Positions 21,696 through 60,044 of a DNA stretch of 64,000 nucleotides are shown here, in pieces. Every line of letters begins with the position of its first letter. Positions within the stretch are counted from its first letter, which is position 1. Under the pieces are notes generated by a model that worked only from the letters and a program-made list of their open reading frames with translations, was not told where the DNA came from and searched no databases. The position numbers were made by a program, and so were the translations under genes. Source of the stretch: an uncultured bacterium (GTDB lineage Bacteria; Poribacteria; WGA-4E; WGA-3G); the NCBI GenBank assembly GCA_964652195.1, contig CAZZBB010000012.1, positions 36,537-100,536 of the forward strand. The letters are read 5' to 3'.

Positions 21696-22027
21696 ATTTA
21701 CACCTCTAAAGTGTGCAATTTTATTTTTTTGGATTTGTTATTATCTTGTTATACCATTTCTGATAATTAAAGTCACTTTAATGTAGCATAAACTTTCAGT
21801 TTATACCGTATTTCAATATCTGCATTACTACTATTCAAAGGTTGTTTGATACTGCCTAACCTAAAAGTTATGGATAAAAAAGAGACAGTTTCATTCAGAA
21901 ATAAGATTAGAACTCATAGTCGTAAATTGAACATTTAATCCTAAATTCTTAGATGATAAATCGTGAAAATGTTGTGTTTTTCCCGGTGGCGAAAAAGTGA
22001 CGAAAAAGGGGAAAAGTTACACTTTTT

Positions 22028-22044
22028 GACACATTGTGTGTCAT
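22028..22044. promoter_or_regulatory. Perfect palindrome TGACACA-N3-TGTGTCA (operator-like)
   Basis: Seen directly. It lies in the 860-bp non-coding region upstream of the minus-strand envelope cluster. It is flanked by repeated AAAAAGTG/CACTTTTT and TTGACA motifs. Confidence 0.3.
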
Positions 22045-22318
22045 TGAAATTGGTGTAAATTACCCCTCTAACCTCTGTCATAGACTGACTTTATCCCACT
22101 TTGAATTGACTATATAAGAATTTCCAAAAAGTGTGATTTTGTGTTTTTGTTGTCCTTACGGATTTTGTATTTTTCAAACTGCATATTAAAGCTGATTTTT
22201 TGACATAAAGTATATTTTGTATTTAGGACGTTTTTATAGATAGTCATCATTAATTCTCTTATTATTTACTTCCCATTAAGGTGGCGAATTCCATACTCGG
22301 ATTCGGCGTTGATTTGGT

Positions 22319-22336
22319 GAATGCTAAACAGCATTC
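22319..22336. repeat. GAATGC-loop-GCATTC hairpin repeat (family member)
   Basis: GAATGCTAAACAGCATTC. Related copies lie at 34358-34375 (GAATGCCTTAGGGCATTC) and 37922-37939 (degenerate). Confidence 0.45.
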
Positions 22337-22557
22337 ATACCGCTGATTCATTGATTTCACTCTTAGTTTGCGTGAAAAAGATGTACAAACTGGATGTTTG
22401 TGCTAAAAAGTAGCTTTTGGTAATGTTAGTTGTTAGCTATAGATATATTCTTCATTTTATTTTCAATTTTTTAGAAAAATGTGTAAAATCATCATTTGGT
22501 AGGGTTAACACTAATAGCAATTATTTTACTGTCTTTACAAGATGATACCATGAGAAA

Positions 22558-25030: not shown

Positions 25031-25283
25031 CTCTAAAAAATAGACTTATTGAACTAAGAGTATATAATATATTATTACGAACTGTCAATTAAAATTATCA
25101 TGTTGTTTATTATTTGAGGGTGTTTTTGTGGAATTATGGAATCGAACCGATGGTATTAGGTATAGACATAGCACCAGTGGCATGGAATGTGTATAGTTAG
25201 TTCGTGGATTCCTGAGTCTAAGACAGAAGGGCAGCATGCGCGTTTGGCATGCTGCATGAGGTTTTGTAAGTATGCTTAGTGAT

Positions 25284-25306
25284 ACACCTTTCGCACCTCT
25301 GGTGCT
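25284..25306. repeat. 23-bp repeat ACACCTTTCGCACC(T)CTGGTGCT, copy 1
   Basis: Contains the GCACC-N3-GGTGC hairpin. Copies 2 and 3 lie at 30076 and 30127, and an inverted degenerate copy at 59207. Copy 1 sits at the left edge of the GC-rich island. Confidence 0.7.
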
Positions 25307-25606: not shown

Positions 25607-26107
25607 ATGAAATATCAATTGGTAATCCAAGACCTTAGTATACCGGTGCCAGGTGTACCTTCGTGGAGTATACCCTTATGTTCTAACCATAACGTTTACT
25701 TTGGTTGCTTAGGGCATATAGCCGAGGAGGATATAAAAACAAACCGTATAGATAGCCAATTTTATAATGGAGAAGATACAGCTATCGTCTTAGATATTGA
25801 TATAGATGCCAAAGTCGTGAGACACACCTGTTTGGCCCGTAAAAAAGAGACGACTGTGCAGTCAACAGTGGCGTTGGGTATAGGTGATGATATAGTGGAT
25901 GCGGGGGCTAAATTCACAGTAGGTCAGACGACGTATATAGCGATAACCGAGAGTGTAAAAGAGACGGTTAATACCCCTGTGGTTTCGCTAAGAGATAGTG
26001 TATATGCCGGCGTAGATTTTGATCGTCGTGCGCTATGCTCTGCCCACGCGGATTTTGATTTTGAGGGCAATGATTTTGACGAAGGTTCGGTCTGGTATCA
26101 GCCTTGA
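25607..26107 (+). CDS. Hypothetical protein
   Basis: An internal ATG at 25607 follows an AGAGG RBS; the ORF track starts at 25523, but a strong hairpin at 25544-25575 falls inside that longer ORF. No recognisable domain. It is the first gene of the GC-richer island. Confidence 0.4.
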   Translation: MKYQLVIQDLSIPVPGVPSWSIPLCSNHNVYFGCLGHIAEEDIKTNRIDSQFYNGEDTAIVLDIDIDAKVVRHTCLARKKETTVQSTVALGIGDDIVDAGAKFTVGQTTYIAITESVKETVNTPVVSLRDSVYAGVDFDRRALCSAHADFDFEGNDFDEGSVWYQP

Positions 26108-26172
26108 ATAACTTTTAGATGCGACTTGGCACCCCGGTTTATACTGTCGGGGTACCCTAAAGTAGAATTCCC

Positions 26173-27792
26173 ATGAGAATAAAACATGCTTTTACAATAC
26201 TTTTTGTTATCCTCTTTGGCATTAGTGTTTTTATCTTTTTACGAAGTTCTAATGTCCTTCCCAATGGTGATAAACTTGTCTTTCTCAATGGTGATAAACT
26301 GAAACCGAGAACTCCGGATGGTCCTGTCTCCACGTTAGAAAAAGCGGCGCGTGTGGCGTTGCATCCACTCGCAGCAGATTGGAAAACAGTTGAAGCAGCA
26401 ATGAAGCAGCGTGTTTTATCTTGGGAGGATTGGGCTCGGAAAACAGTTGAAATCGGGTGTGCGATGGACGTGCTGTATGGACATATAAACACCCCTGAAG
26501 AGGTTGCAGCGGCACGCGAAAAACAGTTAGCGATACAACTGAAATGGGCTGCCGACTGTGAATCTAGAGGGTCTATTCTTCCTAACTATCCTTTTGAGAT
26601 TCCGAAGGTTTCCCCTAAGAAGCGGTTTGACTACGAAGGACCTCAGACGAGCGAAGCACTGCTGGCAGCGTTTGATCGGAAGTGGATGGAACGTTATCCG
26701 CAATCGGTGGATTGGGACGCACATTATCCCAAAGCCGCCTGGATTGACCGAATTGTGAGTCTGGGCGGTGAAGTCCAAAGTTACGGCGATTATAGTTTTT
26801 ACCTTAAATTGCGCAGAGACCTTATCAAACACAAAGAGTCCCCGCACAAATGGCATAGTGGGGCGTTCGGTATCCCTCCAACAACGAACTTTGAGGAATA
26901 CGAAACAGGCTATATCAATAGAAAGATTTGGGAAAATGATATACGCAAAGAGGTTCGCTCTAACTACCCTGACGAGCCCAAGATTACAACCTATTTCCCC
27001 AGTGATCAACCTGATAAATACCTTCCTGTAGTAGGTAACATGACGTATGTCTACAGAAAGCCGAATAGCAGTGCAGTGAGAACCTATGGTAAATTGCTGA
27101 CTGATGAAGAGGTAAAGGACCTGAGAAATAAAGGCATAGAACCGAAGGATGTTGAAATTGTCTACATTGATGACGAATACAATGTCCTTACCGAAAAACC
27201 GAAACCCTATAACCATCAAGAGTGGTTAGAAAAAAACTCTTATGACATTGTCCCCGAAGGACTCCGTGCGCCGGATGGCACCATCGTGTCCCCTGAGCGT
27301 TATCAGGAAATAAGAGGTCAAGAGATGCCTTATGAGACGCGGCAAAGGTATGATGAATATATCGGTGATTCCCCTGCTGCTGTGGATCCTGCTGCTGCTG
27401 AGGCGGAACGCCGAGCCGTATTAACCCGCGAAGCTGCCCGTGCGGAATTTGAACGATTTAAAGAGGATATGCGCCAAATAGAAAAGTTTCAGTCTATGGC
27501 AGCAAACGAGGTATCCCGTAAGTTTGCGTTGGAGTTTCTGTCTCAATACACGCCGAAGTCCGCCACGGATAAACGGCTCCAAACGGCACTGCAAACGATG
27601 TTTCAACGTGGGTTTGATGACGGGCTGCACAGCCTGCGAAAAGACGACCCTGCCCTGGCAGCAGAGTTAGAACGGCAGCTTGCCGAAACATACAGACCAC
27701 CACAACCGCAGTTGCGACGACTAAAGACCGTGCCCCAAAAGACCGTGCCCCCTAATCCAGCGGAGACACCTCCCGCAGGGGATACGGACTAA
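26173..27792 (+). CDS. Hypothetical 539-aa protein with N-terminal membrane anchor
   Basis: Long ORF with about 50% GC and a hydrophobic N-terminus (AFTILFVILFGISVFIFL). The antisense strand also carries long ORFs, as expected for GC-rich DNA. No motif recognised. Confidence 0.5.
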   Translation: MRIKHAFTILFVILFGISVFIFLRSSNVLPNGDKLVFLNGDKLKPRTPDGPVSTLEKAARVALHPLAADWKTVEAAMKQRVLSWEDWARKTVEIGCAMDVLYGHINTPEEVAAAREKQLAIQLKWAADCESRGSILPNYPFEIPKVSPKKRFDYEGPQTSEALLAAFDRKWMERYPQSVDWDAHYPKAAWIDRIVSLGGEVQSYGDYSFYLKLRRDLIKHKESPHKWHSGAFGIPPTTNFEEYETGYINRKIWENDIRKEVRSNYPDEPKITTYFPSDQPDKYLPVVGNMTYVYRKPNSSAVRTYGKLLTDEEVKDLRNKGIEPKDVEIVYIDDEYNVLTEKPKPYNHQEWLEKNSYDIVPEGLRAPDGTIVSPERYQEIRGQEMPYETRQRYDEYIGDSPAAVDPAAAEAERRAVLTREAARAEFERFKEDMRQIEKFQSMAANEVSRKFALEFLSQYTPKSATDKRLQTALQTMFQRGFDDGLHSLRKDDPALAAELERQLAETYRPPQPQLRRLKTVPQKTVPPNPAETPPAGDTD

Positions 27793-27982
27793 ATGAAGCA
27801 TCTGATACATTGGAGCAGCCTCGTGCTGCTCCTTATCGGGGTGCGGACTACTTCTATAGCCGGACCACTACAGACGTAGCTTCTCTGTGAGTACGTCACT
27901 GGGATGAGATAGACGTGGCGGCTATCCAAAGAGACTATCAACCTTAGAGACAGAAGAACAGATATCAGAGTATCTGCTGTGG

Positions 27983-28845
27983 GTGCTTCTCTTTGTACCG
28001 ACACTTTACCTCTTTTCACCGCCCTATCGTAGTGGCGGGGGATGGACAACCCATGCCACCGCTTTTTTACTCGCCTCCCCTATCGTCATGCTACTGCTAC
28101 GCACCGGACGGTATTTTCTGACACGCACACAGCACCCCTTTGCAAAGGTTGTCACAGAAAAGATGTCCGCACGCGGTATCTCACTGGTTCTCTGTGCCAT
28201 ATGCATCCTCAGCGGAATTGCTTATATCGTGCTTGTGCGGGATACATTTTGCACAGGATACACCAATATCAAGAACACGTATCTAACGCGACGACAGAAC
28301 AAAAACCATTAGATTTTCTAAAAACATACAACGTGACACACATACTTCTCAGTGAAGAAGATGTGCTGAACATCGCTTCTCTGCACACGGATGAACAAGA
28401 CGAATACCTAACTTCTATGGTGAGACTACTGCCACGCTCTTATACCGGCAGTACACATGCCAGATTGATACCGGCACACAAAAAAACGTTGCTCAGTTTT
28501 GTGGAGATCGATTTCTATCACAAACCAACTACCGCCACAGCAAAACTAAAAAACGGTAAAACAGTAAATATCGGATACGTCAAGTCCGATAGCACAGCAG
28601 AGAAAAAAAATGAAAAATACGGGGGAATGCTACATCTATTCGATCCAAAAACACACCAAGAAGCCATATACTACCTATCCCCGCAGATTTGGAATAGTTT
28701 CGCTATCAAACTATTTTTCCGAAACCAATATAGCAAAGCGTTTGTGCCCGTATATCCACAACAAACAGGAAACGCAAAAGTCAAAATATGGGAGATACAG
28801 TATCCGACAGATATAAATGAAAATCTGAAATATCTCGAAAGGTAA
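27983..28845 (+). pseudogene. Probable frameshifted gene (hypothetical membrane protein)
   Basis: ORF 27983-28312 reads as a membrane N-terminus. ORF 28042-28845 is protein-like only after about 28300 (KPLDFLKTYNVTHILLSEEDV...). Its first 80 codons are His/Arg/Cys-rich out-of-frame noise. A +1/-1 shift near 28290-28315 would join the two halves. Confidence 0.35.
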
Positions 28846-29358
28846 ATGAAAATGATACGCATCTTGAAACAATGCTGCATATATGGCGGGATCCTTTTCT
28901 TTGGACTTGTCATTACAAATGCGACACTACAACGATTGGTAAAACCAACACCGATAAAAGTGTACGTGATACCGAAAACAGAAAAGAAAGAATATATAAA
29001 AAGAAATACAAAACTCTATGAACACCTAAAACCGAAACCGATTGACCGGCAGAAAGTATTTGATAACACAATCATTGAGAATAACATCTTCGCACCCCTC
29101 GGATACAAACCGCCCAAAAAAACACACACTTATAGACTCGTCGGAACACAGATACCAATCGGGAGAGAAACAGAGGCAATAGCGATATTACAAGAGACCA
29201 CCGGCGAGAAAAATATGCTGAGCGTTTCCATCGGAACAAAAATAGCACAGGACACAGTGGTCATGGACATAAAACCCAAGCAGATAATCATCAAAAAAGG
29301 GAATAGACGGACCCTCCTGAGGTTAGAGACATGGCTACTCCTAAATAACAGAAGGTAG
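28846..29358 (+). CDS. Hypothetical single-TM protein (weak GspC/PilP-like pattern)
   Basis: N-terminal TM (CCIYGGILFFGLVI). The C-terminal region RLVGTQIPIGRETEAIAIL...IIIKKGNRRTLL is reminiscent of GspC/PilP beta-domains. Low confidence. Confidence 0.4.
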   Translation: MKMIRILKQCCIYGGILFFGLVITNATLQRLVKPTPIKVYVIPKTEKKEYIKRNTKLYEHLKPKPIDRQKVFDNTIIENNIFAPLGYKPPKKTHTYRLVGTQIPIGRETEAIAILQETTGEKNMLSVSIGTKIAQDTVVMDIKPKQIIIKKGNRRTLLRLETWLLLNNRR

Positions 29359-29367
29359 GCACACAGC

Positions 29368-29989
29368 ATGAAAGCAAACGCAATTACGAGCACACGCATC
29401 GTTCTCACATTTATGCTCATCGCAATGTTCGGGGAAAATATATATAGATATGGCAGCCACAGCAACAATTCCACTGATCTTCATACTCGATGCCATTGAC
29501 GGATATGTCGCACGAAAGTATAAACAGGAAAACGCCTCCGGCGCCGTCTTAGACATTGCAGCAGATAGAATTATTGAAAATGTATTTTGGATTTACTTCA
29601 CCGCAAATCAGGTGATCCATTTCTGGATGCCGGTCGCAGTACTCACACGCGGATTCGTTACGGACGCAATACGCAGCTTCGCACTCAAAGACGGAAAGAT
29701 CCCTTTTGAAATGAACACAAAATATTGGACACACGCAATGACAAGCTCACGCATCTCACGCGCATGCTCAGGAACATCAAAAATGAGCGCATTCTTCGCA
29801 ATGGCAGCATTACTCGCTATCAAAAATCAGCAGATACACACCCAGCAGCTCGAGAAACTTCAGACAACAACTCTTATACTCGCAATCACCGCTGTCGCAA
29901 TCTGTATACTACGAGGGATACCTGTCATAATTGAGGGGCGACATCAAAAAAGCATTCAAACAATAATCTGGGTTATACTATTCATGTAA
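29368..29989 (+). pseudogene. CDP-alcohol phosphatidyltransferase family gene, apparently frameshifted
   Basis: From 29368 frame 1 gives MKANAITSTRIVLTFMLIAMF, a typical N-terminus, then a stop. From 29450 frame 2 carries D(x)2DG(x)2AR(x)8G(x)3D(x)3D (LDAIDGYVARK...GAVLDIAADRI). The shift falls in AAAATATATATAGATATGG. Confidence 0.5.
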
Positions 29990-30075
29990 TACCATTTCTA
30001 ATTAATTTTTGTTCCATTACCTAATGTTACTATAGTTTGGACAATTTTCGTAATTTCTTGAACAACTGTATACAT

Positions 30076-30098
30076 ACACCTTTCGCACCGCTGGTGCT
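30076..30098. repeat. 23-bp repeat ACACCTTTCGCACCGCTGGTGCT, copy 2
   Basis: Identical to copy 3 and 22 of 23 identical to copy 1. Confidence 0.7.
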
Positions 30099-30126
30099 CG
30101 GTTACTTGTGGCATTTACGTTTCTAC

Positions 30127-30149
30127 ACACCTTTCGCACCGCTGGTGCT
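30127..30149. repeat. 23-bp repeat ACACCTTTCGCACCGCTGGTGCT, copy 3
   Basis: Tandem with copy 2 at a 51-bp period. Confidence 0.7.
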
Positions 30150-30426
30150 ACGGATTTAGTCAATAGTATTCTTTTTCGGAAAGTTTCATGTTGTGGTTTA
30201 ACTCATCAATTAATAAGTTCTTATCAAACAACAGTCTGGGGAATGGTATCAAACATTAACACCCAAGCACCCGTAGTTAGGGATGTGTCTAAACATAAAG
30301 AATAGACTTACAAGTCTTTGTTTAATTCTTAAAACTGTCCAAACTATAGTATAAATTAGAACATGTCTTATAAATCATACATTTGGGATTTTTTGATCTT
30401 GTCCATGTACTCCAGATTGAAACAAC

Positions 30427-30445
30427 GGACGGGGAGACCCCGTCC
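30427..30445. repeat. GC-rich hairpin repeat GGACGGGG-AGA-CCCCGTCC followed by CTACGA
   Basis: Perfect 8-bp stem. A second copy lies at 37836-37854 (GGACGGGGAAACCCCGTCCCTACGA). Confidence 0.6.
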
Positions 30446-30601
30446 CTACGAAGAGGAATTGAATTTGTATGGTCATTTCGTATTAGTGAGATACACTGTA
30501 GTTATATCTTATTGCTGAAGTTGGATATACGTATGATGGGTTCAACGCATCCAACTGTAAGCGGAGAAACATTCGAATATCTGATTAAAACTATAGACGA
30601 T

Positions 30602-31183
30602 TTATCGATTTTCAAAGGCAGTAATGTCTGCTTCGTATTGAAGTGTCCAACCAATTTCATCGAGTCCGTTTAGTAGACAGTACTTTTCAAAGTCGCCTAT
30701 CTCAAATGTGTGGGTAGTTCCATCAGGACAAATTACCGATTGTACTTCGAGGTCAATCATCAATTGATAGCCTTCTGTGTCTTGTGCTGCTTTGCTAAGT
30801 TCTGTGATGATATCTGCTGGTAATGAGACCGGTAGGATTCCATTCTTATAGCAATTGTTGCGGAAGATGTCTGCAAAGGAGGGTGCGAGAACGGCTTTAA
30901 ATCCGTATTGCTGAAGTGCCCAGGGGGCATGTTCACGAGAACTACCGCAACCGAAGTTTATTCCAGCGATGAGAATACTGGCGTCAGCATACTTGGGTTG
31001 GTTCAATATAAAATCTGGATTTGGATCACCGTTTTCAAGATACCGCCAATCGTTAAAGAGAAATTCACCGAATCCAGTACGTTCAATTCGTTTTAGGAAT
31101 TGTTTCGGGATAATCTGATCGGTATCAACATTAATTCGGTCAAGAGGTACGACGAATCCAACATGTTCTTTAAATGCTTCCAT
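30602..31183 (-). CDS. leuD: 3-isopropylmalate dehydratase small subunit
   Basis: Shows [17 protein letters not shown] and [12 protein letters not shown]. Confidence 0.9.
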
Positions 31184-31575
31184 TATAACACCTCAATGGG
31201 TTCTTTTCGTTTCCTTTCAGTTTGATCGAAGTCTGTATCGAAACTAATGAGTTGCATCTCATATTTCGCAGCGACAGCGTATTGGTATGCATCGTCAAAG
31301 TCAAGATTGAATTTATCTGCTATGCGTTCCAACGTTTTAAGATCTTCTGGGGATAATGATAGGATGCCAACTCCGTCAACAATTATGTCCTCAAGAAACG
31401 AATTAAAAAGCGTAAAATATTTCAATCGAAACAGAATAATCCCTATAGAATGTAGGGACAGATCCGTTATGTAGATTGTGCTCAAGTCGTTAATTTGTAA
31501 GAATGATTGGACATCATCCTTTTTGTCTTGTCCCAACAAAGCTTCAAGGAAGATGTTAGTATCTGCGAGGTACAC
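31183..31575 (-). CDS. PIN-domain toxin (VapC-like)
   Basis: [12 protein letters not shown] fits the PIN N-terminal Asp motif. A GTG start at 31575 follows GGAGG and overlaps the antitoxin stop as TAGTG; the ORF track extends to 31656. Its stop overlaps the leuD start. Confidence 0.6.
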
Positions 31576-31778
31576 TATTCCCTCCAATCTGACGCTTTTT
31601 TCTGAAGTTCGAGGGCTGTAAACTGGTCTCGAAACGCTTTTAATCCACCAATCCATTCTAAGTTTGGTTTTTTCTTCCGTTTTGAACTTTTTTTTGTATG
31701 TAAGAAATCAATGAAGTGAATGACTTCTTCTTGGAGTTCCGGAGGAAGTTCCCTAATTTTTTCAATGATAGATTCCAT
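31575..31778 (-). CDS. DUF2281-like antitoxin
   Basis: 67 aa. MESIIEKIRELPPELQEEVIHFIDFLHTKK matches the DUF2281 pattern. It is translationally coupled to the downstream PIN gene. Confidence 0.55.
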   Translation of the reverse strand: MESIIEKIRELPPELQEEVIHFIDFLHTKKSSKRKKKPNLEWIGGLKAFRDQFTALELQKKASDWRE

Positions 31779-31817
31779 TGTTGTCTCCGTATTTTTCAGG
31801 GTAGAGTGGACACAGGT

Positions 31818-31845
31818 ATTTTAAGCAAGCCTTTGACTTATCCAA
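31818..31845 (-). promoter_or_regulatory. Candidate sigma70-type promoter for the toxin-antitoxin pair
   Basis: Minus strand reads TTGGAT, 16 bp, TAAAAT, with GGAG 8 nt before the antitoxin ATG. The -35 box overlaps the leuC stop. Confidence 0.3.
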
Positions 31846-33238
31846 ACGTTCGTATGTCCACAAAATGTCCTGTTACAGCAGTTGCTGCAGCCATTTGTGG
31901 ACTAACAAGGTGTGTCCTTCCACCTTTACCTTGTCTACCCTCAAAGTTTCTGTTAGATGTGCTTGCACACCTTTGTCCTGGTGTCAGCGTGTCTGGATTC
32001 ATTCCAAGGCACATACTGCATCCTGCTTCTCTCCATTCGAAACCTGCTGATTGGAAGATCTCATCAAGTCCTTCTGCTTCAGCTTGCCGTTTGACGGCTT
32101 GTGAACCAGGCACAACCATTGCACTGACGGTGTCTGCGACCTTTCTACCTTTTGCCACCTCTGCGGCTGCCCGTAAATCACTAATACGAGAGTTGGTACA
32201 ACTACCAATAAAAACTCGATCAACTGGGATGTTGGTTATCGGTGTACCCGGTTTTAAATCCATATATTCTAATGCGTGTTCAGCTGCCCGTTTTTCATCT
32301 TGTGATTCCATTTTATCAGGATCTGGTACCTGTCCAGTAACATCGGTGACCATACCAGGATTTGTACCCCAAGTAATTTGGGGTGCTATATCGGCAGCAT
32401 CAAGAATAAGGGTTTTATCATAGGTTGCCCCGTCATCTGTTGGGAGTTGTTTCCAACGTTCAACTGCAGCATCAAATGCTTCGTCTTTAGGAGCGAAACG
32501 TTTTCCGGCAAGGTATTCATAGGTCGTGTCATCTGGTGCAATCATCCCTGCGCGAGCACCTGCTTCAATTGACATATTACATACAGTCATCCGTTCTTCA
32601 ATGCTAAGGGATCGTATAGTGGAACCTGTGTATTCAACTACAGCGCCATTTCCTCCATCAATACCGATATGTCCGATAATAGAGAGGATGATGTCTTTTG
32701 CTGTTACCCCATAAGGGAGTGTGCCGTCAACCCGGATTTCAAAGGTTTCTGATTTTTGTTGTAGTAAGCATTGTGTCGCAAGGACATGTTCAATTTCACT
32801 TGTTCCGATACCGAAAGCGAGTGCTCCTAAGGCACCATGTGTTGAGGTGTGGCTATCACCGCATACAATTGTCATGCCGGGTTGAGTGATGCCGAGTTCT
32901 GGACCAATGACGTGGACGATTCCTTGATCGGGACTGTTGATGTCGTAGAGAGGAATGTCAAACTCTTTACAGTTTTGTGATAGAGTCTCCATCTGCTTGG
33001 CAGCGATCAGGTCAGTAATAGGCAGCGACCTATCCGTCGTCGGTACGTTGTGATCCATAGTTGCGAAGGTTAACTCTGGTCTGCGTACTTTTCTGTTGTT
33101 GATTCGTAACCCTTCAAATGCTTGTGGGGATGTGACCTCGTGTACAAGGTGTGTGTCAATATATAGTATGGGAACTTCGTCTTCGGATGCTCGGACGAGA
33201 TGTGTGTCCCATATTTTTTCGTACATTGTTTTTTTCAT
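31838..33238 (-). CDS. leuC: 3-isopropylmalate dehydratase large subunit
   Basis: 466 aa with an aconitase-family Fe-S ligand region ([18 protein letters not shown]). Confidence 0.9.
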
Positions 33239-33957
33239 AATTTTTCTTTACCTTTAAATAACGAGCAGATCTCCCCTGACAACGGATAATTTCAAACCCT
33301 CTTGCTTCTAAATAGGGATAAACATGGCGATTTCGATAGTCGTAGGAGGCTTTTGTGATTTGATCGTAACTGGAATCAATAGCAAGGATTTTCAAGTCAA
33401 TGCGTCGTTTTATAGCGGGTTAGCGTTTTCATTTCTGGTGTTATAACTCTCTTTCATTAGCACGTTCAATCAAACGTTCAATCATTCGCTGCTCGACCTC
33501 AATTAGTGTGCATCCTATAGGTGTTCGGGCTTGCACTTCGTTAATTGCGCGTTTTTTGTCCAGTATCCCTAAGCCAAGAATACCCATATCATACTCGGGA
33601 CGTTGTCGAATACGCTCCGCAACCAACTCTGACTGTTGTTCAGGTGTCAATTGAATGAACGAAAACCGTGCGGGTTGGTTTTCCACCACTTCCCGTAAAG
33701 AGAGCCATTGCCCGTTGGGTGCCATTGCCACTGGACGGCTCCAATGGTCTTCGCGAGGTATCGGTGTGTCATTCGTCATAAATATTTCCTCAATACTGTG
33801 TGTTCAGAATCAAGATTATGCTGTCCACTACTTCATCGAGAGCAAATAATAGTAGTATCATACTATAAAAACACCCGAAAATCAACAAAAACGCATTCTT
33901 CAGAATTATTTAGTGTTGAGAATTTTCAGTGCTTTAGCATGGGTGTAAAGTCAATAT

Positions 33958-34266
33958 CTATAAATCCATTTTTAGTTGCTTTAGCATCTCAATTACTTCA
34001 TCTGCTACAAGGATATACAAACTCTTAGGATCAAACAGATAGTTTTTGAACAACAACCAACATATCTTTGACCAAGGGAGATCTGTGCTAAAGAAGCGTT
34101 GTATCGTGCGATAGCTACCTCCTTTTGATGTCCCCCGTGAGATATTTAACATGGTGACTTGACCAGTCATCGCAAGCAGTGCAAATACAACTTGGCATAA
34201 CTGGTGGATCATAGTAGTGGATAGACATGGATTAAGTACAGTAATTAATGCTATAATTCCTGGCAT
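33958..34266 (-). pseudogene. Possible DDE transposase N-terminal fragment (IS4/IS701-like)
   Basis: 102 aa. RGTSKGGSYRTIQRFFS...YILVADEVIE resembles the N-terminal region and first catalytic D stretch of IS4/IS701-type transposases. It is truncated. Recall-based. Confidence 0.3.
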
Positions 34267-34357
34267 GGGTGTGTGTCCTTTCTAAGTTACGATAAAGTTT
34301 TATGAAGATTAATTTTTTAATTCGGTAATTTTAGAGAAATATCCAAATCAACGGTAT

Positions 34358-34375
34358 GAATGCCTTAGGGCATTC
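34358..34375. repeat. GAATGCC-TTAG-GGCATTC hairpin repeat
   Basis: Perfect 7-bp stem. Part of a larger repeated intergenic module shared with 37790-37990. Confidence 0.5.
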
Positions 34376-34532
34376 CCCGCCTACCGGGTTTGGTAAATTA
34401 GAATTGCCGAAATATTTTCTTTATCTTCATAAAACTTTAGGACAGACACCCTTTTATTCAAGTATTTTTGGCGAAGGTATTGAAACAAAACTAATATTAA
34501 ATATGATTTAGAATTTACTAACAAGGAGTCAG

Positions 34533-36365
34533 ATGAAACGTTATTTTACCAGTATCGGCATTGCGATAATGTTCTTTACCTATTTCGGTTGTTCTTCAGA
34601 CGAAGAACCGGGAGATATGGATTCTATGATAGTGCCAGATCCAACCGAAGAAACAGTTGAAGTCGTAGAGGTAGAGGATGTTGTCCTACTTTCGGATGAT
34701 GTTGTGTTAGAAAATATGTCTGTGTCTGAGATCGCAGCCCTTGAAGATAAAACGCCTGTTCAGATTGTGACAGTGCTTGAAGGCACGCAGCGTGTTAGCA
34801 TTGCGGCCCGATTTCGGGGTGTACGCGATTTCGGGTATGAATTTCCGGTGTATGAGTGCGAGTTGATGTCCGAAGACATTGAGGATATGGGTGGTATTGC
34901 TGCCGGTATGTCAGGGAGTCCTGTTGGTGTACCTGGCAAAATTATGGGTGCGCTTGCTTACGGTAACAACTTCTCTGCGGCACCGACCCGTTTTTGGGTG
35001 ACACCGATTGACGCGATGGAGTCTGCGCGTGATCATCAAACATTTGGTGATGAGTTAGCGGAGCATCTTGCTGCGGCACCGTCTGGTGGGATAAACGCTG
35101 TGTACGCCCCCGTCAAAACCCCGCTTATGATTACGGGTTTAAAACCGAGTAGGCTTCGGCATCTTGAATCGCGTCTGAAAGGAACACGATTTGAGTATGT
35201 AGAAATTTTTGCTGATGTTGGTGGGGCGCCTGCGGCCCCTTCTGTTGATAGAGATCTATTGGCAGGTGATATGATCGGTGTTGCGATTGTGATAGGCGAT
35301 GTTGTCAATGCGATCGGTTTTGGCACAGTGACGCAAGTTTATGACGATGACACGTTCGTTGCGTTTGGGCATCCGTTTTCTGCGTTTGGCGATGGTAAAA
35401 CGTCAATGCCGGTCTATAGAGCGACTGTCAATGGGCTTGTGCCGAACTTACAAAACACCTATAAATCTGTGTCGGCTTATGGCGAACCGATTGGCACTGT
35501 TACCAAAGACCTTATCCCTGGGATTGTGGGTGAATTTGGTGATCCGCCCGAGATGATACCTGTCAATATCGAGTATAAGAGAAATAAGGACATCATCAAA
35601 AAATCGCATGAAGTTTCCTATGGCAACGAACTCTTTATACCGATCATCGCTGCTGTTACACAAGACGCCATCCGGTTAGAAACAAGTCCAACCACTATAG
35701 AGGCAACGATAGAACTGAGTTTCAAAGAGTCGCAGCAGCGTTATACAGAAACCTTTTTAAGTGCATCCCAAGACACTTGGTTTGACACACTGCAAAATAC
35801 CGAGAGGATTATTGGGGCTTTTACCGATCCGTTTTTAAACAAATCTGAAAAAGCTACGTTGACGTTGGTTGACATAACGATTGTTGAGAAACCGCAGATT
35901 ATGACAGCGACGATTCAGGAAGTGATTGCGCCTGACCAAATTGTGCGTGGCACGACGGCTACGATAACTGTTGTCCTGTTACCACACTGGAGTGCTGTAA
36001 TAGATGGTGATCGGAAGATAGAGAAGCAGGTAACGCTTTCGGTGCCTTCGGATTATCCGTTAGGTGATGCGTGGATCAGTGTTTTCTCTGAAGATACGGA
36101 TAACTTCTTTTTTGATTTTGATTTTGATTTTGACCTTGACCTTGATGTTGACTCCGATTTTGGACCTTTCCCAGAGGACCTTGACGAACTGATTGAACAG
36201 ATGGAAGAGAACCAGAAAGGATCTGCTGGACTCATCACCGTTGTTTTGTCAGAAGATATTGTTTTCCCTGACGATTTTATTTTTGATGAACCGCAAAACG
36301 AAGTGACACTTGATGATTTTATTGTCACGGGTTCTGAACATGATTTGGTTGAGATTACAGAGTAA
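34533..36365 (+). CDS. Lipoprotein with peptidase S55 (SpoIVB-like) serine-protease motif and C-terminal acidic (FD)n repeat
   Basis: Lipobox: signal then FGCSS. GIAAGMSGSPVGVPGKIMGALAYG matches the SpoIVB active-site Ser region (recall-based). The C-terminus is FDFDFDFDLDLDVDSDF. Confidence 0.5.
   Translation: MKRYFTSIGIAIMFFTYFGCSSDEEPGDMDSMIVPDPTEETVEVVEVEDVVLLSDDVVLENMSVSEIAALEDKTPVQIVTVLEGTQRVSIAARFRGVRDFGYEFPVYECELMSEDIEDMGGIAAGMSGSPVGVPGKIMGALAYGNNFSAAPTRFWVTPIDAMESARDHQTFGDELAEHLAAAPSGGINAVYAPVKTPLMITGLKPSRLRHLESRLKGTRFEYVEIFADVGGAPAAPSVDRDLLAGDMIGVAIVIGDVVNAIGFGTVTQVYDDDTFVAFGHPFSAFGDGKTSMPVYRATVNGLVPNLQNTYKSVSAYGEPIGTVTKDLIPGIVGEFGDPPEMIPVNIEYKRNKDIIKKSHEVSYGNELFIPIIAAVTQDAIRLETSPTTIEATIELSFKESQQRYTETFLSASQDTWFDTLQNTERIIGAFTDPFLNKSEKATLTLVDITIVEKPQIMTATIQEVIAPDQIVRGTTATITVVLLPHWSAVIDGDRKIEKQVTLSVPSDYPLGDAWISVFSEDTDNFFFDFDFDFDLDLDVDSDFGPFPEDLDELIEQMEENQKGSAGLITVVLSEDIVFPDDFIFDEPQNEVTLDDFIVTGSEHDLVEITE
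36109..36160 (+). repeat. Hexanucleotide tandem repeat (TTTGAT/CCTTGA)n inside the CDS
   Basis: tttgattttgattttgattttgaccttgaccttgatgttgac, encoding FDFDFDFDLDLDVD. Confidence 0.8.
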
Positions 36366-36420
36366 TCTGTATCTGGGACGAAACCACATCAAAGAGCGGA
36401 GAATTGAATATCTGACCAAG

Positions 36421-37599
36421 TCACTCAAAAGGTTGCAACATACCATCTTTTACAATCAGTGCTTTCTGTTCATACACAGCATCTCCATCAGCATTAAATG
36501 AGAATTTTCCAAAAATCGTGTCTAAGTTGCTGGTATTTGCTAAAGCGTCTCTGATTGAGATTGAGTCTATTACTTCGGCATTCTTAATTGCTTCTGTCAA
36601 AATGTGGACGGACGTATAAGATGCTGCTGCAAAGACATCTGGAATCATGCCAAAGGTTGTGTGATACTTATCAACAAATGCCTGATTCCCCGGTGTGTCA
36701 TCTGTGGGAAGCCAACCAATAAAGGTTATTACACCTTCAGCAGCAGGACCTGCAGCTGTTACATCAGTATTGGTTAATGAACTCATGATCATGGGAACGG
36801 ATATGCCGAGTGTTTGTGCTTGGATTAGGATTGGTGCTTTTTCTGGTGGCAGAGCAGAGATGAAGATAGCATCGGGTTCCAACTCATTTATCCGATTTAA
36901 TTGTGCTGTGAAATCTGTATCACCACCCTTGAAAATTTCCGTGGTTATTACCTCAATATTGATGTCACTTAATGCTTCGCGTAATGCATCGTTTCGGTCC
37001 GTAGAGAATACATCAGTTTCATCATACATTGTAGCTACGCGTTCATAAGCGAGTTTCGCGTGTGTGGTTTTAACACCATTAAGTGCTAAGACATTCGAGG
37101 CGAGAGGAATTCGAAAGAGGAAATCTCCTAATGCACTTAAACCCCTTGACCCCGACGTTGGGCTAATCGCGACAGTTTGATTCTCTTGTGCGACTGGGAA
37201 TGCCAACTTAGTAGCACTTGAGGTTGCGGGACCGAGAATAACAAATACACCGTCTTCGTGAATTAGTTTATTGAAAGCATCAACTGCAGCAGGTGGCGAA
37301 CTCATACTGTCTTCAAGGATTGGTTTGAGTATGGTGTTATTGAGTTGAGTACTGTTAATTTCATCAAATGCTAGTTCAAATCCCTGCCTCATGCGTTCAC
37401 CGGAAGCAGTTAAGTGTCCTGTTAGCGGTAAAACAACTCCGATAGTAATTTCGGTACTCTTATCATCTGCTTGTTGGGTTGGAGGTTGAGTAATTTGTGT
37501 TATTCGTTCGCATGCTGAAAAACATATCAACAAGGCTGCAATTGTCGTTAAAATAAAAATAGATTTCAAATTATTGATCCTTTTAATGTGTTTTTTCAT
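36421..37599 (-). CDS. ABC transporter substrate-binding lipoprotein, branched-chain amino acid (LivJ/K, Peripla_BP_6) family
   Basis: Lipobox ICFSAC. ITIGVVLPLTGHLTASGERMRQGFELA and GVFVILGPATSSAT match the family. No permease or ATPase genes are adjacent. Confidence 0.75.
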   Translation of the reverse strand: MKKHIKRINNLKSIFILTTIAALLICFSACERITQITQPPTQQADDKSTEITIGVVLPLTGHLTASGERMRQGFELAFDEINSTQLNNTILKPILEDSMSSPPAAVDAFNKLIHEDGVFVILGPATSSATKLAFPVAQENQTVAISPTSGSRGLSALGDFLFRIPLASNVLALNGVKTTHAKLAYERVATMYDETDVFSTDRNDALREALSDINIEVITTEIFKGGDTDFTAQLNRINELEPDAIFISALPPEKAPILIQAQTLGISVPMIMSSLTNTDVTAAGPAAEGVITFIGWLPTDDTPGNQAFVDKYHTTFGMIPDVFAAASYTSVHILTEAIKNAEVIDSISIRDALANTSNLDTIFGKFSFNADGDAVYEQKALIVKDGMLQPFE

Positions 37600-37635
37600 T
37601 TATTATGTCTTGTGGGATGGTGATATAATCCGATG

Positions 37636-37742
37636 TAATGCAGATTAAATATACCAAAATAATTCAGGTATGTCAAATTCAAAGTATGGATTATTCAAAT
37701 GCTTTTGCTACAGTTGAATGGGATGAACTATAATCTGCATTA
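37636..37742. promoter_or_regulatory. 12-bp perfect inverted repeat TAATGCAGATTA ... TAATCTGCATTA enclosing about 83 nt, in the 5' region of the SBP gene
   Basis: Seen directly, at 37636-37647 and 37731-37742. Confidence 0.25.
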
Positions 37743-37835
37743 ATGACTTAATACAAATGGGTTTTTTGATGGTGTTATTATACGGTATGAATGACATATA
37801 TAGATTATAGATTAATTTTTAACTCGGTCATATAC

Positions 37836-37854
37836 GGACGGGGAAACCCCGTCC
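37836..37854. repeat. GC-rich hairpin repeat GGACGGGG-AAA-CCCCGTCC followed by CTACGA (second copy)
   Basis: Matches 30427-30445. It is embedded in a composite intergenic repeat that also has a degenerate GAACGC..GCATTC module at 37922-37939. Confidence 0.6.
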
Positions 37855-38082
37855 CTACGATAATTTTATAGGCTGGATTACCGAAATATTTTCTTAAACT
37901 CTATAAGTCATTCCCGGGTATGAACGCTATTTAGCATTCACCGTGTTAGAAACCGCACTTACCGGGGCTATAAGAGTATTAATTTTGAAAGATAGAAGTT
38001 CATATAACTATTATCATACTCCGGTTAATGTACTGATATCAAAGTTGTCAGGTCTATAGGTTATTTACCTTAGATCATAAAT

Positions 38083-42002: not shown

Positions 42003-42163
42003 TAGCGTTAAGGTTTAATTTTGCTCAGATCATGAATGGTTGTTATCCGTGGCTTGAAATACTGCACAAACTAAACAGTTTATGCTACATTTAAGAGACC
42101 TAAATCATCAGAAATGGTATAATAAAGATTCTGGCATGAATGCCTATTCGGTAAGGTTTGTTT

Positions 42164-59229: not shown

Positions 59230-60044
59230 ATAGAAAACTTAAATACAAAAATGAATAAAAATGAAGAATATCTTAATCAATAACAACTAATATATCACAA
59301 TAACACAAAATAAATTAAAAACACTTGTCAAAATAGAAATAAAATTGTAGAATACTGTATTGTTCACCTTTTATATACGAATACTAATTTATTACAATAG
59401 AGTTACGAGAATTTATATATTTAGAAATTAGTGTTCTTTAAGAATAACCCAATACAACACAACTATATAATATCATTTCTATTTGAATAGTTCACATTAT
59501 AGAAAATAAAGAAAATATCTATAGCTAACAACTAAAAACATAGAATGGATTCAAGAAATTTAGATGATGCATTTCACATATTCATATCAAAAATTAGGAG
59601 AAAAAATGATGACTACCTATAAAAACGATCCTAAATACAAAAGTTTAATTACGTCAAAAAAACGACATTATTTGATGGTTGGAAATGTCAAAATCAGCAA
59701 CAACAATAAAAACACAAAATCACACATTTTAGAAATTCTTATAAATGCAATTCAAAGTGGAGTAAAGTCAGTCTATGACAGGGTTTGCAGGGGTAATTTA
59801 CACCAATTTCAATGTCACACGATGTGACAAAAAGTGTAACTTTTTCCTTGTTTCGACACATAGAGGAAAACACCATGAACACGATATTACCATCAGAGAA
59901 TTTAGGATTAAAAGCCTGTTTTTGCACCCTATTATTTGTCTCTATATTAGGATTAAATCGCTGTTTTTTGCCTTTTTAACTGACAGAAATATCATCTTGT
60001 GTAAGGATGTAATACCATTTCTATATGATAATATAACATTATTT

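What the first reader, a model, noticed from the sequence alone, without database searches (positions are those of the whole stretch)
34300..37990. Composite intergenic repeat modules carrying interchangeable GC-rich hairpins
Regions 34300-34450 and 37790-37990 share an architecture: TTAATTTTT(A)A(C)TCGGT, then a GC-rich hairpin, then ATT(G/A)CCGAAATATTTTCTT. The hairpin differs between them. In the first it is GAATGCCTTAGGGCATTC. In the second it is GGACGGGGAAACCCCGTCC plus a degenerate GAACGC..GCATTC. The GGACGGGG hairpin recurs at 30427 and the GAATGC hairpin at 22319. In an AT-rich genome these GC-rich stems are conspicuous. They may be sRNA genes, terminators, or MITE or REP families.
Basis: seen in the sequence. 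Interest (0 to 1): 0.5.

Follow-up and report, generated by a model that had tools for sequence, protein, structure and literature searches.

The report
Nested palindromic mobile repeats of Poribacteria
The two look-alike intergenic modules are copies of a small non-coding mobile element confined, as far as sampled, to the sponge-associated phylum Poribacteria: it always carries a GC-rich hairpin repeat and inserts, without duplicating its target, at the centre of other DNA hairpins, giving hairpins nested inside hairpins.

Summary
The shared frame is a 101-130 nt palindromic element, ATGAAGATTAATTTATTAATTCGGTAAT...cargo...ATTACCGAAATATTTTCTTAAWCTTCAT. Its 19-mer occurs in at least 99 stretches from 38 Poribacteria assemblies. 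No complete frame occurs in the 18 non-Poribacteria hits.

The interchangeable GC-rich hairpins are REP-type repeats. Two families carry the GTAG tag. One family (GTGCGGTT) flanks a Y1/RAYT transposase gene in inverted orientation in two genomes.

The frame plus its cargo moves as a unit. Copies 100% identical sit in unrelated host hairpins of one genome. A clean filled/empty allele pair shows insertion exactly at the dyad centre of a palindrome, with no target duplication. 84% of copies lie at the apex of a host hairpin, against 3% of controls. Frames also nest inside other frames.

Module A sits in the leader hairpin of a decayed IS701-like element. Module B sits in the loop of a GAATGC-type hairpin. 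Neither shows features of an sRNA or a terminator.

The mechanism of movement is inferred. The leading candidate is single-strand HUH/Y1 (RAYT-like) transposition. This is a new variant of the REP/MITE kind.

The parts
34302..34430 (+). Frame element copy A, 129 nt. The L arm is 34302-34329 and the R arm is 34403-34430. The interior holds a remnant of the P1 REP with an H1 hairpin inserted in it.
   Evidence: Arm profiles built from 80 related copies give nhmmer E = 1e-9 for the L arm and 2.5e-6 for the R arm. It aligns to Poribacteria copies at 75-93% identity.
34345..34379 (+). H1 hairpin unit, AAATCAAC-GGTAT-GAATGCC-ttag-GGCATTC-CCCG.
   Evidence: The same unit with the same flanks occurs in L031, L008, L089 and other loci.
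34380..34393 (+). Right-hand remnant of the P1 REP unit, CCTACCGGGTTTGG, including the CTAC (= GTAG) tag.
   Evidence: It matches intact cargo in L012 and L089...AACCGCACCTACCGGGTTTGGgaaaattaga.
33958..34482 (-). Decayed IS701-like insertion sequence. It comprises the left end CAATACCTTCGCCAA (34482->34468), a leader with a hairpin (GGGTGTGTGTCC 34267-34278 and GGACAGACACCC 34440-34451), and a truncated transposase ORF of 102 aa. It is the host of frame A.
   Evidence: The ORF hits Pfam DDE_5 at E = 3e-8. The end and leader are conserved in L141, L138 and L142, all of which lack the frame.
37798..37904 (+). Frame element copy B, about 107 nt. The L arm is degenerate, with a 7-nt ATAGATT duplication (GATTAATTTTTAACTCGGTCAT = 37810-37831). 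The R arm is 37877-37904. The cargo is a P3 REP.
   Evidence: nhmmer gives E = 1.7e-8 for the R arm and 0.098 for the L arm. It is 84-88% identical to P3-carrying frames in L092, L076, L041 and L056.
37834..37860 (+). P3 REP, ACGGACGGGGAAACCCCGTCCCTACGA. Its reverse complement reads GTAG-GGACGGGG...
37783..37918 (+). Host hairpin of frame B. It is an H1-type hairpin split at its loop: CGGTATGAATGAC at| ... |aa GTCATTCCCGGG.
   Evidence: L089 has the identical arrangement: acggtatgaatgacat|frame|aagtcattccccggg.
37917..37943 (+). Second H1 unit, GGTATGAACGCTATTTAGCATTCACCG. It forms a tandem H1 dimer with the split unit.
   Evidence: Tandem H1 dimers are common in related loci.
37944..37967 (+). 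P1 REP remnant, TGTTAGAAACCGCACTTACCGGGG.
   Evidence: (P1right at 37951-37966), and comparison with L089 and L049.
37742..38038 (.). Lineage-specific 297-nt block containing the whole of module B. It lies between the stop of the FGE/TonB gene and the promoter of the substrate-binding-protein gene.
   Evidence: The orthologous spacer in L127 has 3 nt in place of this block. The whole spacer in L126 is 41 nt.
30425..30451 (+). Stand-alone P3 REP, ACGGACGGGGAGACCCCGTCCCTACGA, in a convergent spacer.
   Evidence: On the - strand it also fits a simple hairpin-plus-T terminator pattern downstream of leuD.
22283..22348 (-). Stand-alone tandem pair of H1-type units: AATCAGC-GGTAT-GAATGCT..AGCATTC-ACC, then AAATCAAC-GCC-GAATCC..GGAATTC-GCC.
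30074..30149 (+). Two copies of a further repeat, ATACACCTTTCGCACCGCTGGTGCT (hairpin GCACC-GCT-GGTGC). The copies are at 30074-30098 and 30125-30149. A third copy is at 25282-25306.
   Evidence: The same family occurs in L041, and its ACACCTTTCGC prefix precedes H1 units in L031 and L049.

Best explanation
The modules are copies of a family of non-coding, non-autonomous mobile DNA found only in Poribacteria among the hits sampled.

Shown:
1. The GC-rich hairpins are REP-type repeats. The P1 (GTGCGGTT) and P3 (GGRCGGGG) families carry the GTAG tag. P1 flanks a Y1/RAYT transposase gene in inverted orientation in related genomes.
2. The common 'frame' is a 101-130 nt palindromic carrier. It has two conserved 28-nt arms: an 11-bp terminal stem, a 9-nt mismatched bubble that differs between left and right, and an 8-bp inner stem. 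It always encloses a cargo segment, which in most copies is a recognisable REP unit.
3. Frame plus cargo is the unit that multiplies.
4. The frame inserts exactly at the dyad centre or apical loop of pre-existing hairpins. These hosts include REPs of at least a dozen stem families, H1 hairpins, an IS leader hairpin, a plain AT-rich palindrome and the cargo of other frames. There is no target-site duplication and no loss of bases.

Inferred: movement goes through a single-stranded, folded-back DNA intermediate. This intermediate is cut and joined by an HUH/Y1 tyrosine transposase acting in trans, either a RAYT- or TIRYT-like enzyme or an unidentified recombinase. The targets would be hairpins extruded at the replication fork.

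The two window copies are old and partly decayed. They lie in harmless positions and probably have no function for the host.
For: - **Distribution.** The 19-mer was found in 117+ stretches. 99 of these come from 38 Poribacteria assemblies. There are no frames in the other 18 loci.
- **Anatomy and cargo.** There are 83 complete frames in 896 kb. Recognised cargo classes are P1, P2, P3 and P4; 15 of 81 fall in none of them. No frame is empty.
- **Co-inheritance of arm and cargo.** P2 and P3 occur only with the TTAATCTTCAT arm (16/16). P4 occurs only with TTAAACTTCAT (7/7).
- **Recent movement.** Frames in L023, L040 and L119 of one chromosome are 100% identical over 105 nt, yet sit in different host hairpins with flank identity of 0.42. 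L075 and L102 are 99.1% identical in an H1-type host and a CACAACCT-type host respectively.
- **Target.** 68 of 81 frames have complementary flanks of at least 5 nt, against 2.9% of 2000 controls. Uninserted loops TCCT, AGGA and CCA correspond to TC|CT, AG|GA and C|CA in filled copies.
- **Clean filled/empty alleles.** In one sample, L139 is filled and L140 and L138 are empty...TTTATCAA|TTGATA.... There is no duplication and no loss.
- **Frame A.** It lies inside the leader hairpin of an IS701-like element. Three other copies of that IS lack it.
- **Module B.** The block is absent from the orthologous spacers in L126 and L127.
- **RAYT.** The L006 ORF hits Pfam Y1_Tnp at E = 3.9e-17. It is flanked by inverted P1 REPs, as is its 73% ortholog in L129. 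The protein search returned 336 homologs, and those that carry a source name are named Poribacteria.
- **Orientation.** Frame orientation follows local GC skew, 36 concordant to 15 discordant, p = 0.005. It does not follow gene direction, 24 to 26. This fits replication-linked single-strand transposition as described for IS608 (PMC5027513).
Against: - No transposase gene was found flanked by the 28-nt arms. The only Y1 gene in the roughly 900 kb of repeat-seeded loci is flanked by P1 REPs, not by arms.
- The same arms occur with at least four different REP families. A single REP-specific RAYT therefore cannot explain all copies.
- There is no conserved tetranucleotide 5' of the insertion point, unlike IS200/IS605 targets.
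- In the CACAAACT host family, filled loops appear 1 nt longer than the few empty ones.
- The GC-skew test uses 8-kb windows as a proxy for replication direction, some copies may be orthologous, and several tests were run.
- The arms vary too little for a covariation test, and position 7 is an A.A mismatch in 45 of 81 copies.
Confidence: 0.7

Rival explanations
1. The frame is an ordinary MITE, a deletion derivative of a DDE-transposase insertion sequence, mobilised by cut-and-paste. The IS701-like element next to module A would be one candidate parent.
For: The frame has terminal inverted repeats and MITE-like size. A DDE_5 transposase fragment lies 35 nt from frame A.
Against: The ends of the IS701-like element are CAATACCTTCGCCAA, unrelated to the arms, and frame A is an insertion inside that IS. 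There is no target-site duplication in the clean filled/empty pair or in the loop statistics, whereas DDE transposition makes staggered cuts. No coding version with these ends occurs in about 900 kb.
Confidence: 0.05
2. The frame is mobilised by a site-specific or RNA-guided recombinase. An IS110/IS1111-type enzyme is the obvious candidate, because that family is known to insert into REPs and other palindromes with little or no duplication. A tyrosine or serine recombinase is also possible.
For: Insertion is precise and free of duplication, and goes into REP hairpins. REPs are known targets of insertion sequences (PMC3733652; the IS110-family preference is my own knowledge).
Against: The hosts span at least 12 unrelated stem sequences plus an AT-rich palindrome. 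This is hard to reconcile with sequence-guided targeting. No such gene was seen next to the arms, although the loci were not screened for IS110-type genes.
Confidence: 0.12
3. No dedicated enzyme is involved. Frames spread by host processes acting at hairpins: breakage at extruded palindromes followed by capture of frame DNA, or template switching and gene conversion between hairpins.
For: The target is a structure, not a sequence. Flanks next to frame A are perfectly complementary although the empty IS copies are not, which suggests palindrome correction. At one orthologous host REP, two species carry frames in opposite orientation with different cargo.
Against: The 28-nt arms keep their exact sequence across 38 assemblies with G+C from about 35 to 50% (loci sampled), including the left/right-specific unpaired 9-mers. 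This points to a sequence-specific protein partner. The junctions are exact to the base. Identical copies sit in hosts with no shared homology.
Confidence: 0.1
4. The modules are functional RNA elements selected at these positions, such as sRNA genes, terminators or mRNA-stabilising hairpins.
For: The folds are very stable. REPs elsewhere can affect mRNA stability or termination (PMC3733652). The P3 copy at 30427 fits a simple terminator pattern on the - strand.
Against: There is no Rfam match at threshold. The frame hairpins have no T-run, and terminator-like hits do not exceed shuffles. Orientation is unrelated to gene direction. Flanking-gene arrangements match the background. Presence or absence varies at orthologous sites.
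Confidence: 0.03

Closest known systems
GTAG-tagged REP sequences with their RAYT transposases (REPtrons)
   Same: P1 and P3 are short GC-rich stem-loops with 8-9 bp stems, 3-4 nt loops and a terminal GTAG. They are extragenic and multi-copy. P1 flanks a single-copy Y1_Tnp gene in inverted orientation in L006 and L129.
   Different: They are in a phylum where I found none described. Most sampled copies are not free-standing but ride inside the frame. The H1 family has GTAT and an AATCAAC prefix instead of GTAG.
REP dimers embedded in long conserved palindromes in Anabaena variabilis (GTAG-15) and Halothiobacillus neapolitanus (CGTC-1), from Di Nocera et al. 2013, PMC3733652
   Same: A conserved palindromic sequence encloses REPs, and the palindrome is never found empty.
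   Different: Here the cargo is a single REP unit drawn from several interchangeable families. The carrier is shown to insert at the centre of other hairpins without duplication and to nest recursively. It is conserved across a phylum.
REPINs (Bertels and Rainey 2011)
   Same: Both are long hairpins of about 100 nt, non-autonomous, probably served by a single-copy Y1 transposase, long-lived and apparently inherited vertically.
   Different: A REPIN is two inverted REPs around a spacer. The frame's arms are not REPs: they have no GTAG and no internal GC palindrome. The REP sits at the hairpin tip.
MITEs (for example Correia, RUP, Nezha)
   Same: Size, terminal inverted repeats, absence of coding capacity and intergenic location.
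   Different: There is no target-site duplication, no parent IS with the same ends, and the target is a structure (a palindrome centre).
Insertion sequences that target REP loops or palindromes (IS1397/ISKpn1, IS110/IS1111 family)
   Same: Insertion into the central part of REP hairpins.
   Different: Those are autonomous elements with sequence-specific targets. This element is 0.1 kb, non-coding, and accepts many unrelated hairpins.
BIMEs of E. coli and NIMEs of Neisseria (mosaic intergenic repeat clusters)
   Same: Intergenic mosaics are built from a few repeat modules in varying combinations.
   Different: Those modules are juxtaposed. Here they are nested one inside the loop of another.

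Membership tests
GTAG-type REP / REPtron | Short (20-40 nt) palindromic stem-loop with a 6-9 bp stem and a short loop | tested here: met
   P3 has an 8-bp stem and 3-nt loop. P1 has a 9-bp stem and 3-4 nt loops.
GTAG-type REP / REPtron | Terminal GTAG tag next to the stem | tested here: met
   The tag is present in P1 (GGTAG-GTGCGGTT), in P3 (TCGTAG-GGACGGGG) and in host families (GTAG-CACAAACT, GTAG-GCGCGCTT). It is not present in H1, which has GTAT.
GTAG-type REP / REPtron | A RAYT (Y1, HUH) gene flanked by the same REP in inverted orientation | tested here: met
   This holds for P1 in L006 and L129. It was not examined for P3 or H1. There is no Y1 gene in the window.
GTAG-type REP / REPtron | High copy number and extragenic location | tested here: inconclusive
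   There are 46 GTGCGGTT hairpins in 896 kb of loci that were chosen for containing the frame. The window has only 2 P3 copies and 2 P1 remnants. Whole genomes could not be counted.
REPIN | Two REPs in inverted orientation around a spacer | tested here: not met
   The arms lack a GTAG and a GC palindrome. There is one REP unit, at the tip.
MITE (DDE-mobilised) | Terminal inverted repeats and a size of 70-300 bp | tested here: met
   19 of the 28 arm positions are complementary, and total length is 101-130 nt.
MITE (DDE-mobilised) | Target-site duplication | tested here: not met
   The filled/empty pair L139 against L140/L138 shows none. Loop comparison agrees: TCCT becomes TC|CT.
MITE (DDE-mobilised) | A parent IS with the same ends | tested here: not met
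   None occurs in about 900 kb. The neighbouring IS701-like element has different ends.
IS200/IS605-derived elements (PATEs) | Conserved tetra- or pentanucleotide target 5' of the left end, and subterminal hairpins instead of inverted repeats | tested here: not met
   The 5' flanks vary: TCAA, CTAA, TTTC, TTAG, CTGT and others. The absence of duplication does fit this family.
Intrinsic terminator | GC-rich hairpin followed by a T-run, oriented with the upstream gene | tested here: not met
   The frame hairpins are not called, and only the P3 copy at 30427 (- strand) is. Orientation is unrelated to gene direction.
Known RNA family (Rfam 15) | Match at the gathering score | tested here: not met
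   There are 0 hits in the window. Only sub-threshold miRNA-precursor-like hits appear.
Transcribed sRNA | A discrete transcript | not testable with these tools
   No expression data are available.

The most novel reading that the evidence does not exclude
The frame is a previously unrecognised kind of single-strand DNA transposon. It is a 0.1-kb 'REP carrier' recognised through its conserved arms, or through its cargo REP, by RAYT-type HUH enzymes, and it integrates at the tip of any extruded DNA hairpin. If so, Poribacteria would hold the first natural record of REP dissemination with base-exact, recent insertion events. It would also show a structure-targeted integration rule (the palindrome centre, with no duplication) not described for bacterial transposons.
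Probability: 0.3. Interest if true: 0.75.

Novelty: new variant of a known kind. Interest (0 to 1): 0.55.

Why it matters
How REPs and REPINs multiply is still unproven. RAYTs cut REP DNA in vitro, but no transposition event has been reconstructed.

Here, identical copies in different hosts and a base-exact filled/empty allele give clear insertion events for a REP-carrying unit. They also give a simple, unusual target rule: the centre of a hairpin, with no duplication.

The elements have practical effects too. They break short-read assemblies of Poribacteria: the Logan contigs end at 37859, inside module B, and at 34453, inside the repeated end of the IS that hosts module A. They could also serve as lineage markers for these uncultured sponge symbionts.

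For the window itself the result is modest. It contains two old, partly decayed copies in harmless intergenic positions.

Tried and rejected
- **Rfam.** Searches at gathering and at permissive thresholds gave nothing usable. No tRNA or tmRNA was found.
- **Metagenome scan.** A scan with the substrate-binding protein returned only distant, non-syntenic relatives without the repeats.
- **Viral contigs.** There were 0 matches to the R arm.
- **Y1 transposase search.** I searched the window and all loci with E. coli RayT, the Poribacteria RAYT and an HMM of 121 sequences (120 homologs plus E. coli RayT). This found only the one gene in L006 plus the loci fetched on purpose.
- **Clustering of RAYT homologs.** Single linkage at 62% identity merged 119 of the 121 sequences into one cluster.
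- **Autonomous frame.** No pair of arms enclosing a gene was found. The three long cases are repeat mosaics or decayed copies.
- **Covariation in the arms.** The arms vary too little. I saw two compensatory substitutions and one matched G insertion, so I did not run a formal pair count.
- **Other orthologous comparisons between loci.** These were informative but untidy: opposite orientation and different cargo at one site (L038/L105), and internal deletions (L103/L109).
- **Literature.** I found nothing on REPs or MITEs in Poribacteria.
- **8-codon ORFs in both arms.** ATG...TAA ORFs (MKINLLIR* and MKFKKIFR*) can be read in both arms. I treated them as coincidental, because they have no upstream ribosome-binding context and their variation is not synonymous.

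Full report
**1. The observation**

- GGACGGGG-N3-CCCCGTCC occurs twice, against 0 expected.
- GAATGC-N6-GCATTC occurs three times with at most 1 mismatch, against 0.09 expected.
- ATTRCCGAAATATTTTCTT occurs twice, against 0.16 expected.

Module A is part of a 147-nt near-perfect palindrome with an RNA fold of -55.7 kcal/mol, z = -7.85. The window has 38% G+C, no tRNA and no Rfam hit at gathering score.

**2. Where the window comes from and how widespread the frame is**

I scanned 185,579 species-representative genomes for the 19-mer. 99 of them are from 38 Candidatus Poribacteria assemblies. About nine chance matches are expected for a uniform 18.5-base word in 596 Gb. The 18 non-Poribacteria hits lie in what looks like ordinary coding sequence and contain no frame.

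The window shares repeats and genes with low-GC Poribacteria MAGs. A 100% identical protein sits on an NCBI contig of 137 kb.

Short-read (Logan) contigs of the same organism end at window positions of about 34453 and 37859. These lie in the repeated IS end beside module A and inside module B.

**3. Anatomy of the frame**

Aligning the hits shows a complete element, which I call the frame:

ATGAAGATTAA-TTTWTTAAT-TCGGTAAT [cargo of 45-130 nt] ATTACCGA-AATATTTTC-TTAAWCTTCAT

The outer 11 nt and inner 8 nt of the two arms are complementary. The middle 9 nt are not. They differ consistently between the left and right arm and are as conserved as the paired parts.

In 896 kb of loci there are 83 complete frames. 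Their modal length is about 115 nt, and none is empty.

Cargo falls into recurrent classes:
- **P1:** tCCGGTGCGGTT-AGGA-AACCGCACCTACCGGGyyTGGGG, in either orientation.
- **P2:** GCTGGCGAGGTT-TCCT-AACCTCGCC.
- **P3:** GGRCGGGG-AAA-CCCCGYCCCTACGA.
- **P4:** a double hairpin.
- **Others:** 15 of 81 copies fit none of these classes.

The arm variant and the cargo are inherited together. P2 and P3 occur only with TTAATCTTCAT (16/16), and P4 only with TTAAACTTCAT (7/7).

**4. The hairpins are REPs**

Read on the other strand, P1 is GTAG-GTGCGGTT... and P3 is GTAG-GGRCGGGG.... Host hairpins read GTAG-CACAAACT, GTAG-GCGCGCTT and so on. A short GC-rich stem-loop with a terminal GTAG defines the GTAG REP superfamily (PMC3733652).

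In locus L006, a 173-aa ORF hits Pfam Y1_Tnp at E = 3.9e-17 and E. coli RayT at 2.4e-7. It is flanked upstream by GGTAGGTGCGGTTTGGAACCGCACC and downstream by CCGGTGCGGTTGCGAACCGCACCTACC, that is, by inverted P1 REPs.

Its 73% ortholog in L129 is flanked the same way by the GTTCGGTT variant. A 55% paralog in L130 is flanked by a different 95-nt hairpin repeat. The protein search found 336 homologs. Only a few carry a source name, and those are named Poribacteria.

The GAATGC hairpin (H1) belongs to a family AATCAAC-GGTAT-GAATGCC-n4-5-GGCATTC-MCCG. It is often a tandem dimer. Its tag is GTAT, not GTAG, and no transposase was linked to it.

**5. The frame is mobile and targets hairpin centres**

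- **Identical copies in different hosts.** Within one chromosome (OZ246958), the frames in L023, L040 and L119 are 100% identical over 105 nt. They lie in different hosts: GGTGCGGTT tc|ct and GAGCAAACT aa|aa, with flank identity of 0.42. In CBDHCS01, two 99.1% identical frames lie in an H1-type hairpin and a CACAACCT hairpin.
- **Position at hairpin apices.** 68 of 81 frames have perfectly complementary flanks of at least 5 nt, and 57 of 81 have at least 7 nt. The figures for 2000 control positions are 2.9% and 0.25%.
- **No duplication in the best-sampled host.** Uninserted GTGCGGTT loops are TCCT/AGGA, CCA/TGG and so on. Filled ones read TC|CT, AG|GA, C|CA and TG|G. Nothing is duplicated or lost.
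- **A clean filled/empty pair.** Three contigs of one sample carry the same locus. L140 and L138 read ...CATTTATCAA|TTGATACATTGAC.... L139 has a 124-nt frame exactly at the bar, which is the dyad centre of TATCAA|TTGATA, with no duplication.
- **Recursive nesting.** Frames occur in the cargo loop of other frames in L003, L006, L025, L068 and L114.
- **Intergenic location.** 80 of 81 frames are intergenic, and the arrangement of flanking genes matches the background.

**6. The two window copies**

*Frame A (34302-34430).* It carries a P1 remnant into which an H1 unit has inserted. L089 and L031 show the intermediate forms.

Frame A is not merely beside the DDE_5 fragment. It is inside that element. 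The IS701-like left end CAATACCTTCGCCAAAAAT and its leader are conserved in three other Poribacteria copies. In those copies a hairpin (GGGTGTCTGTCC...GGACACACACCC) is intact, whereas the window copy has the frame at its apex. The IS ends are unrelated to the arms. This removes the obvious rival that the frame is a MITE of the neighbouring IS.

*Frame B (about 37798-37904).* It has a degenerate left arm and P3 cargo. It sits in the loop of an H1-type hairpin, CGGTATGAATGAC at|...|aa GTCATTCCCGGG, exactly as in L089. A second H1 unit and a P1 remnant follow it.

The whole 297-nt block (37742-38038) is absent from the orthologous spacer in two relatives with conserved gene order. That spacer is 217 nt in L127 and 41 nt in L126. 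The likely promoter of the downstream gene is outside the block and conserved.

Profile searches find no further frames in the window.

**7. How it probably works**

What is shown is precise, duplication-free insertion at a structural target, conserved asymmetric arms, and obligatory cargo that is usually a REP. What follows is inferred.

Staggered-cut (DDE) transposition is excluded by the missing duplication. Enzymes that cut and rejoin single strands fit the data. HUH/Y1 transposases do this on folded single-stranded DNA at the replication fork and leave no duplication (PMC5027513, PMC3201880). RAYTs are the Y1 branch tied to REPs. Some Y1 genes are flanked by long inverted repeats instead of REPs (TIRYTs; PMC3733652).

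In line with a replication-linked process, frame orientation follows local GC skew, 36 to 15, p = 0.005. It does not follow gene direction, 24 to 26. I regard this as suggestive only.

Three points count against a simple RAYT model. The same arms serve several REP families. No Y1 gene was found between arms. There is no conserved target tetranucleotide. An unidentified recombinase, or host processing of extruded hairpins, therefore remains possible.

**8. Comparison with what is known**

They reported that REP dimers in Anabaena variabilis and Halothiobacillus neapolitanus lie inside long conserved palindromes that are never found empty.

Four things are added here:
- interchangeable REP families in one carrier;
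- base-exact evidence for movement of the composite unit;
- the palindrome-centre target without duplication;
- recursive nesting, with conservation across a phylum.

Literature searches found no description of REPs or MITEs in Poribacteria.

I file this as a new variant of the REP/MITE kind, not as a new category.

**9. Verdict**

The finding is real and is correctly described. In the window the copies are old passengers. The family they belong to is of moderate to good interest for mobile-DNA biology.

Noticed in passing
window 21746-22458 and 59258-59992 (inverted): A non-coding repeat of about 330-420 nt is present twice in the window in inverted orientation, 37 kb apart (82-84% identity). 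Copies at about 80% identity occur in Poribacteria loci L012 (3436-3853) and L089 (1763-2119), near frame elements. It has no Rfam hit, and its fold is not unusually stable (z = -1.6).
   Followed up: partly
window 21749-21816 and 42054-42122 (inverted); also L031 2693-2753: A 69-nt repeat contains TATACCATTTCTGATAAT and a GTAGCATAAACT half-hairpin. The motif TA(T)ACCATTTCTAAT recurs next to many frames in related loci. It may be a promoter-like or another repeat module.
   Followed up: no
window 25282-25306, 30074-30098, 30125-30149: A third repeat family, ATACACCTTTCGCACC-nCT-GGTGCT, is present. Its ACACCTTTCGC prefix is followed by H1 hairpins instead in other Poribacteria (L031, L049). This is a second case of a shared prefix with exchangeable hairpins.
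   Followed up: partly
window 33958-34266 (-); proteins P0241-P0289: All 49 database homologs of the DDE_5 N-terminal fragment are short (56-176 aa). In L141 the rest of the transposase follows in an overlapping second ORF. So this IS701-like family is frameshifted or decayed in every homolog retrieved, most of them unnamed metagenome proteins.
   Followed up: partly
window 30028-30055 and 30324-30351: A 28-nt inverted repeat (86% complementary) brackets about 270 nt that contain the two ACACCTTTCGC repeats. It lies in the convergent spacer between a CDP-alcohol phosphatidyltransferase gene and leuD.
   Followed up: no
window 31183-31656 (-): A PIN-domain gene sits between leuC and leuD, interrupting the usual leuCD pair. 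Its stop overlaps the leuD start.
   Followed up: no
window 26000-36000: G+C rises to 0.43-0.48, against about 0.33-0.41 in the rest of the window. ORFs at 26173-29358 have no Pfam match. This may be a foreign segment.
   Followed up: no
L130 1700-2000 and 2560-2680: A RAYT paralog in another Poribacteria genome is flanked by two direct copies of a 95-nt hairpin repeat, CTGTGGGAGAGGAATCC...GGATTTCCCTCCCACAG. It looks like a REPIN-like family distinct from P1.
   Followed up: no
frame arms, e.g. window 34302-34328: Both arms read outward-in as 8-codon ORFs from the terminal ATG to a TAA in the inner box (MKINLLIR* and MKFKKIFR*). This is probably coincidental.
   Followed up: no
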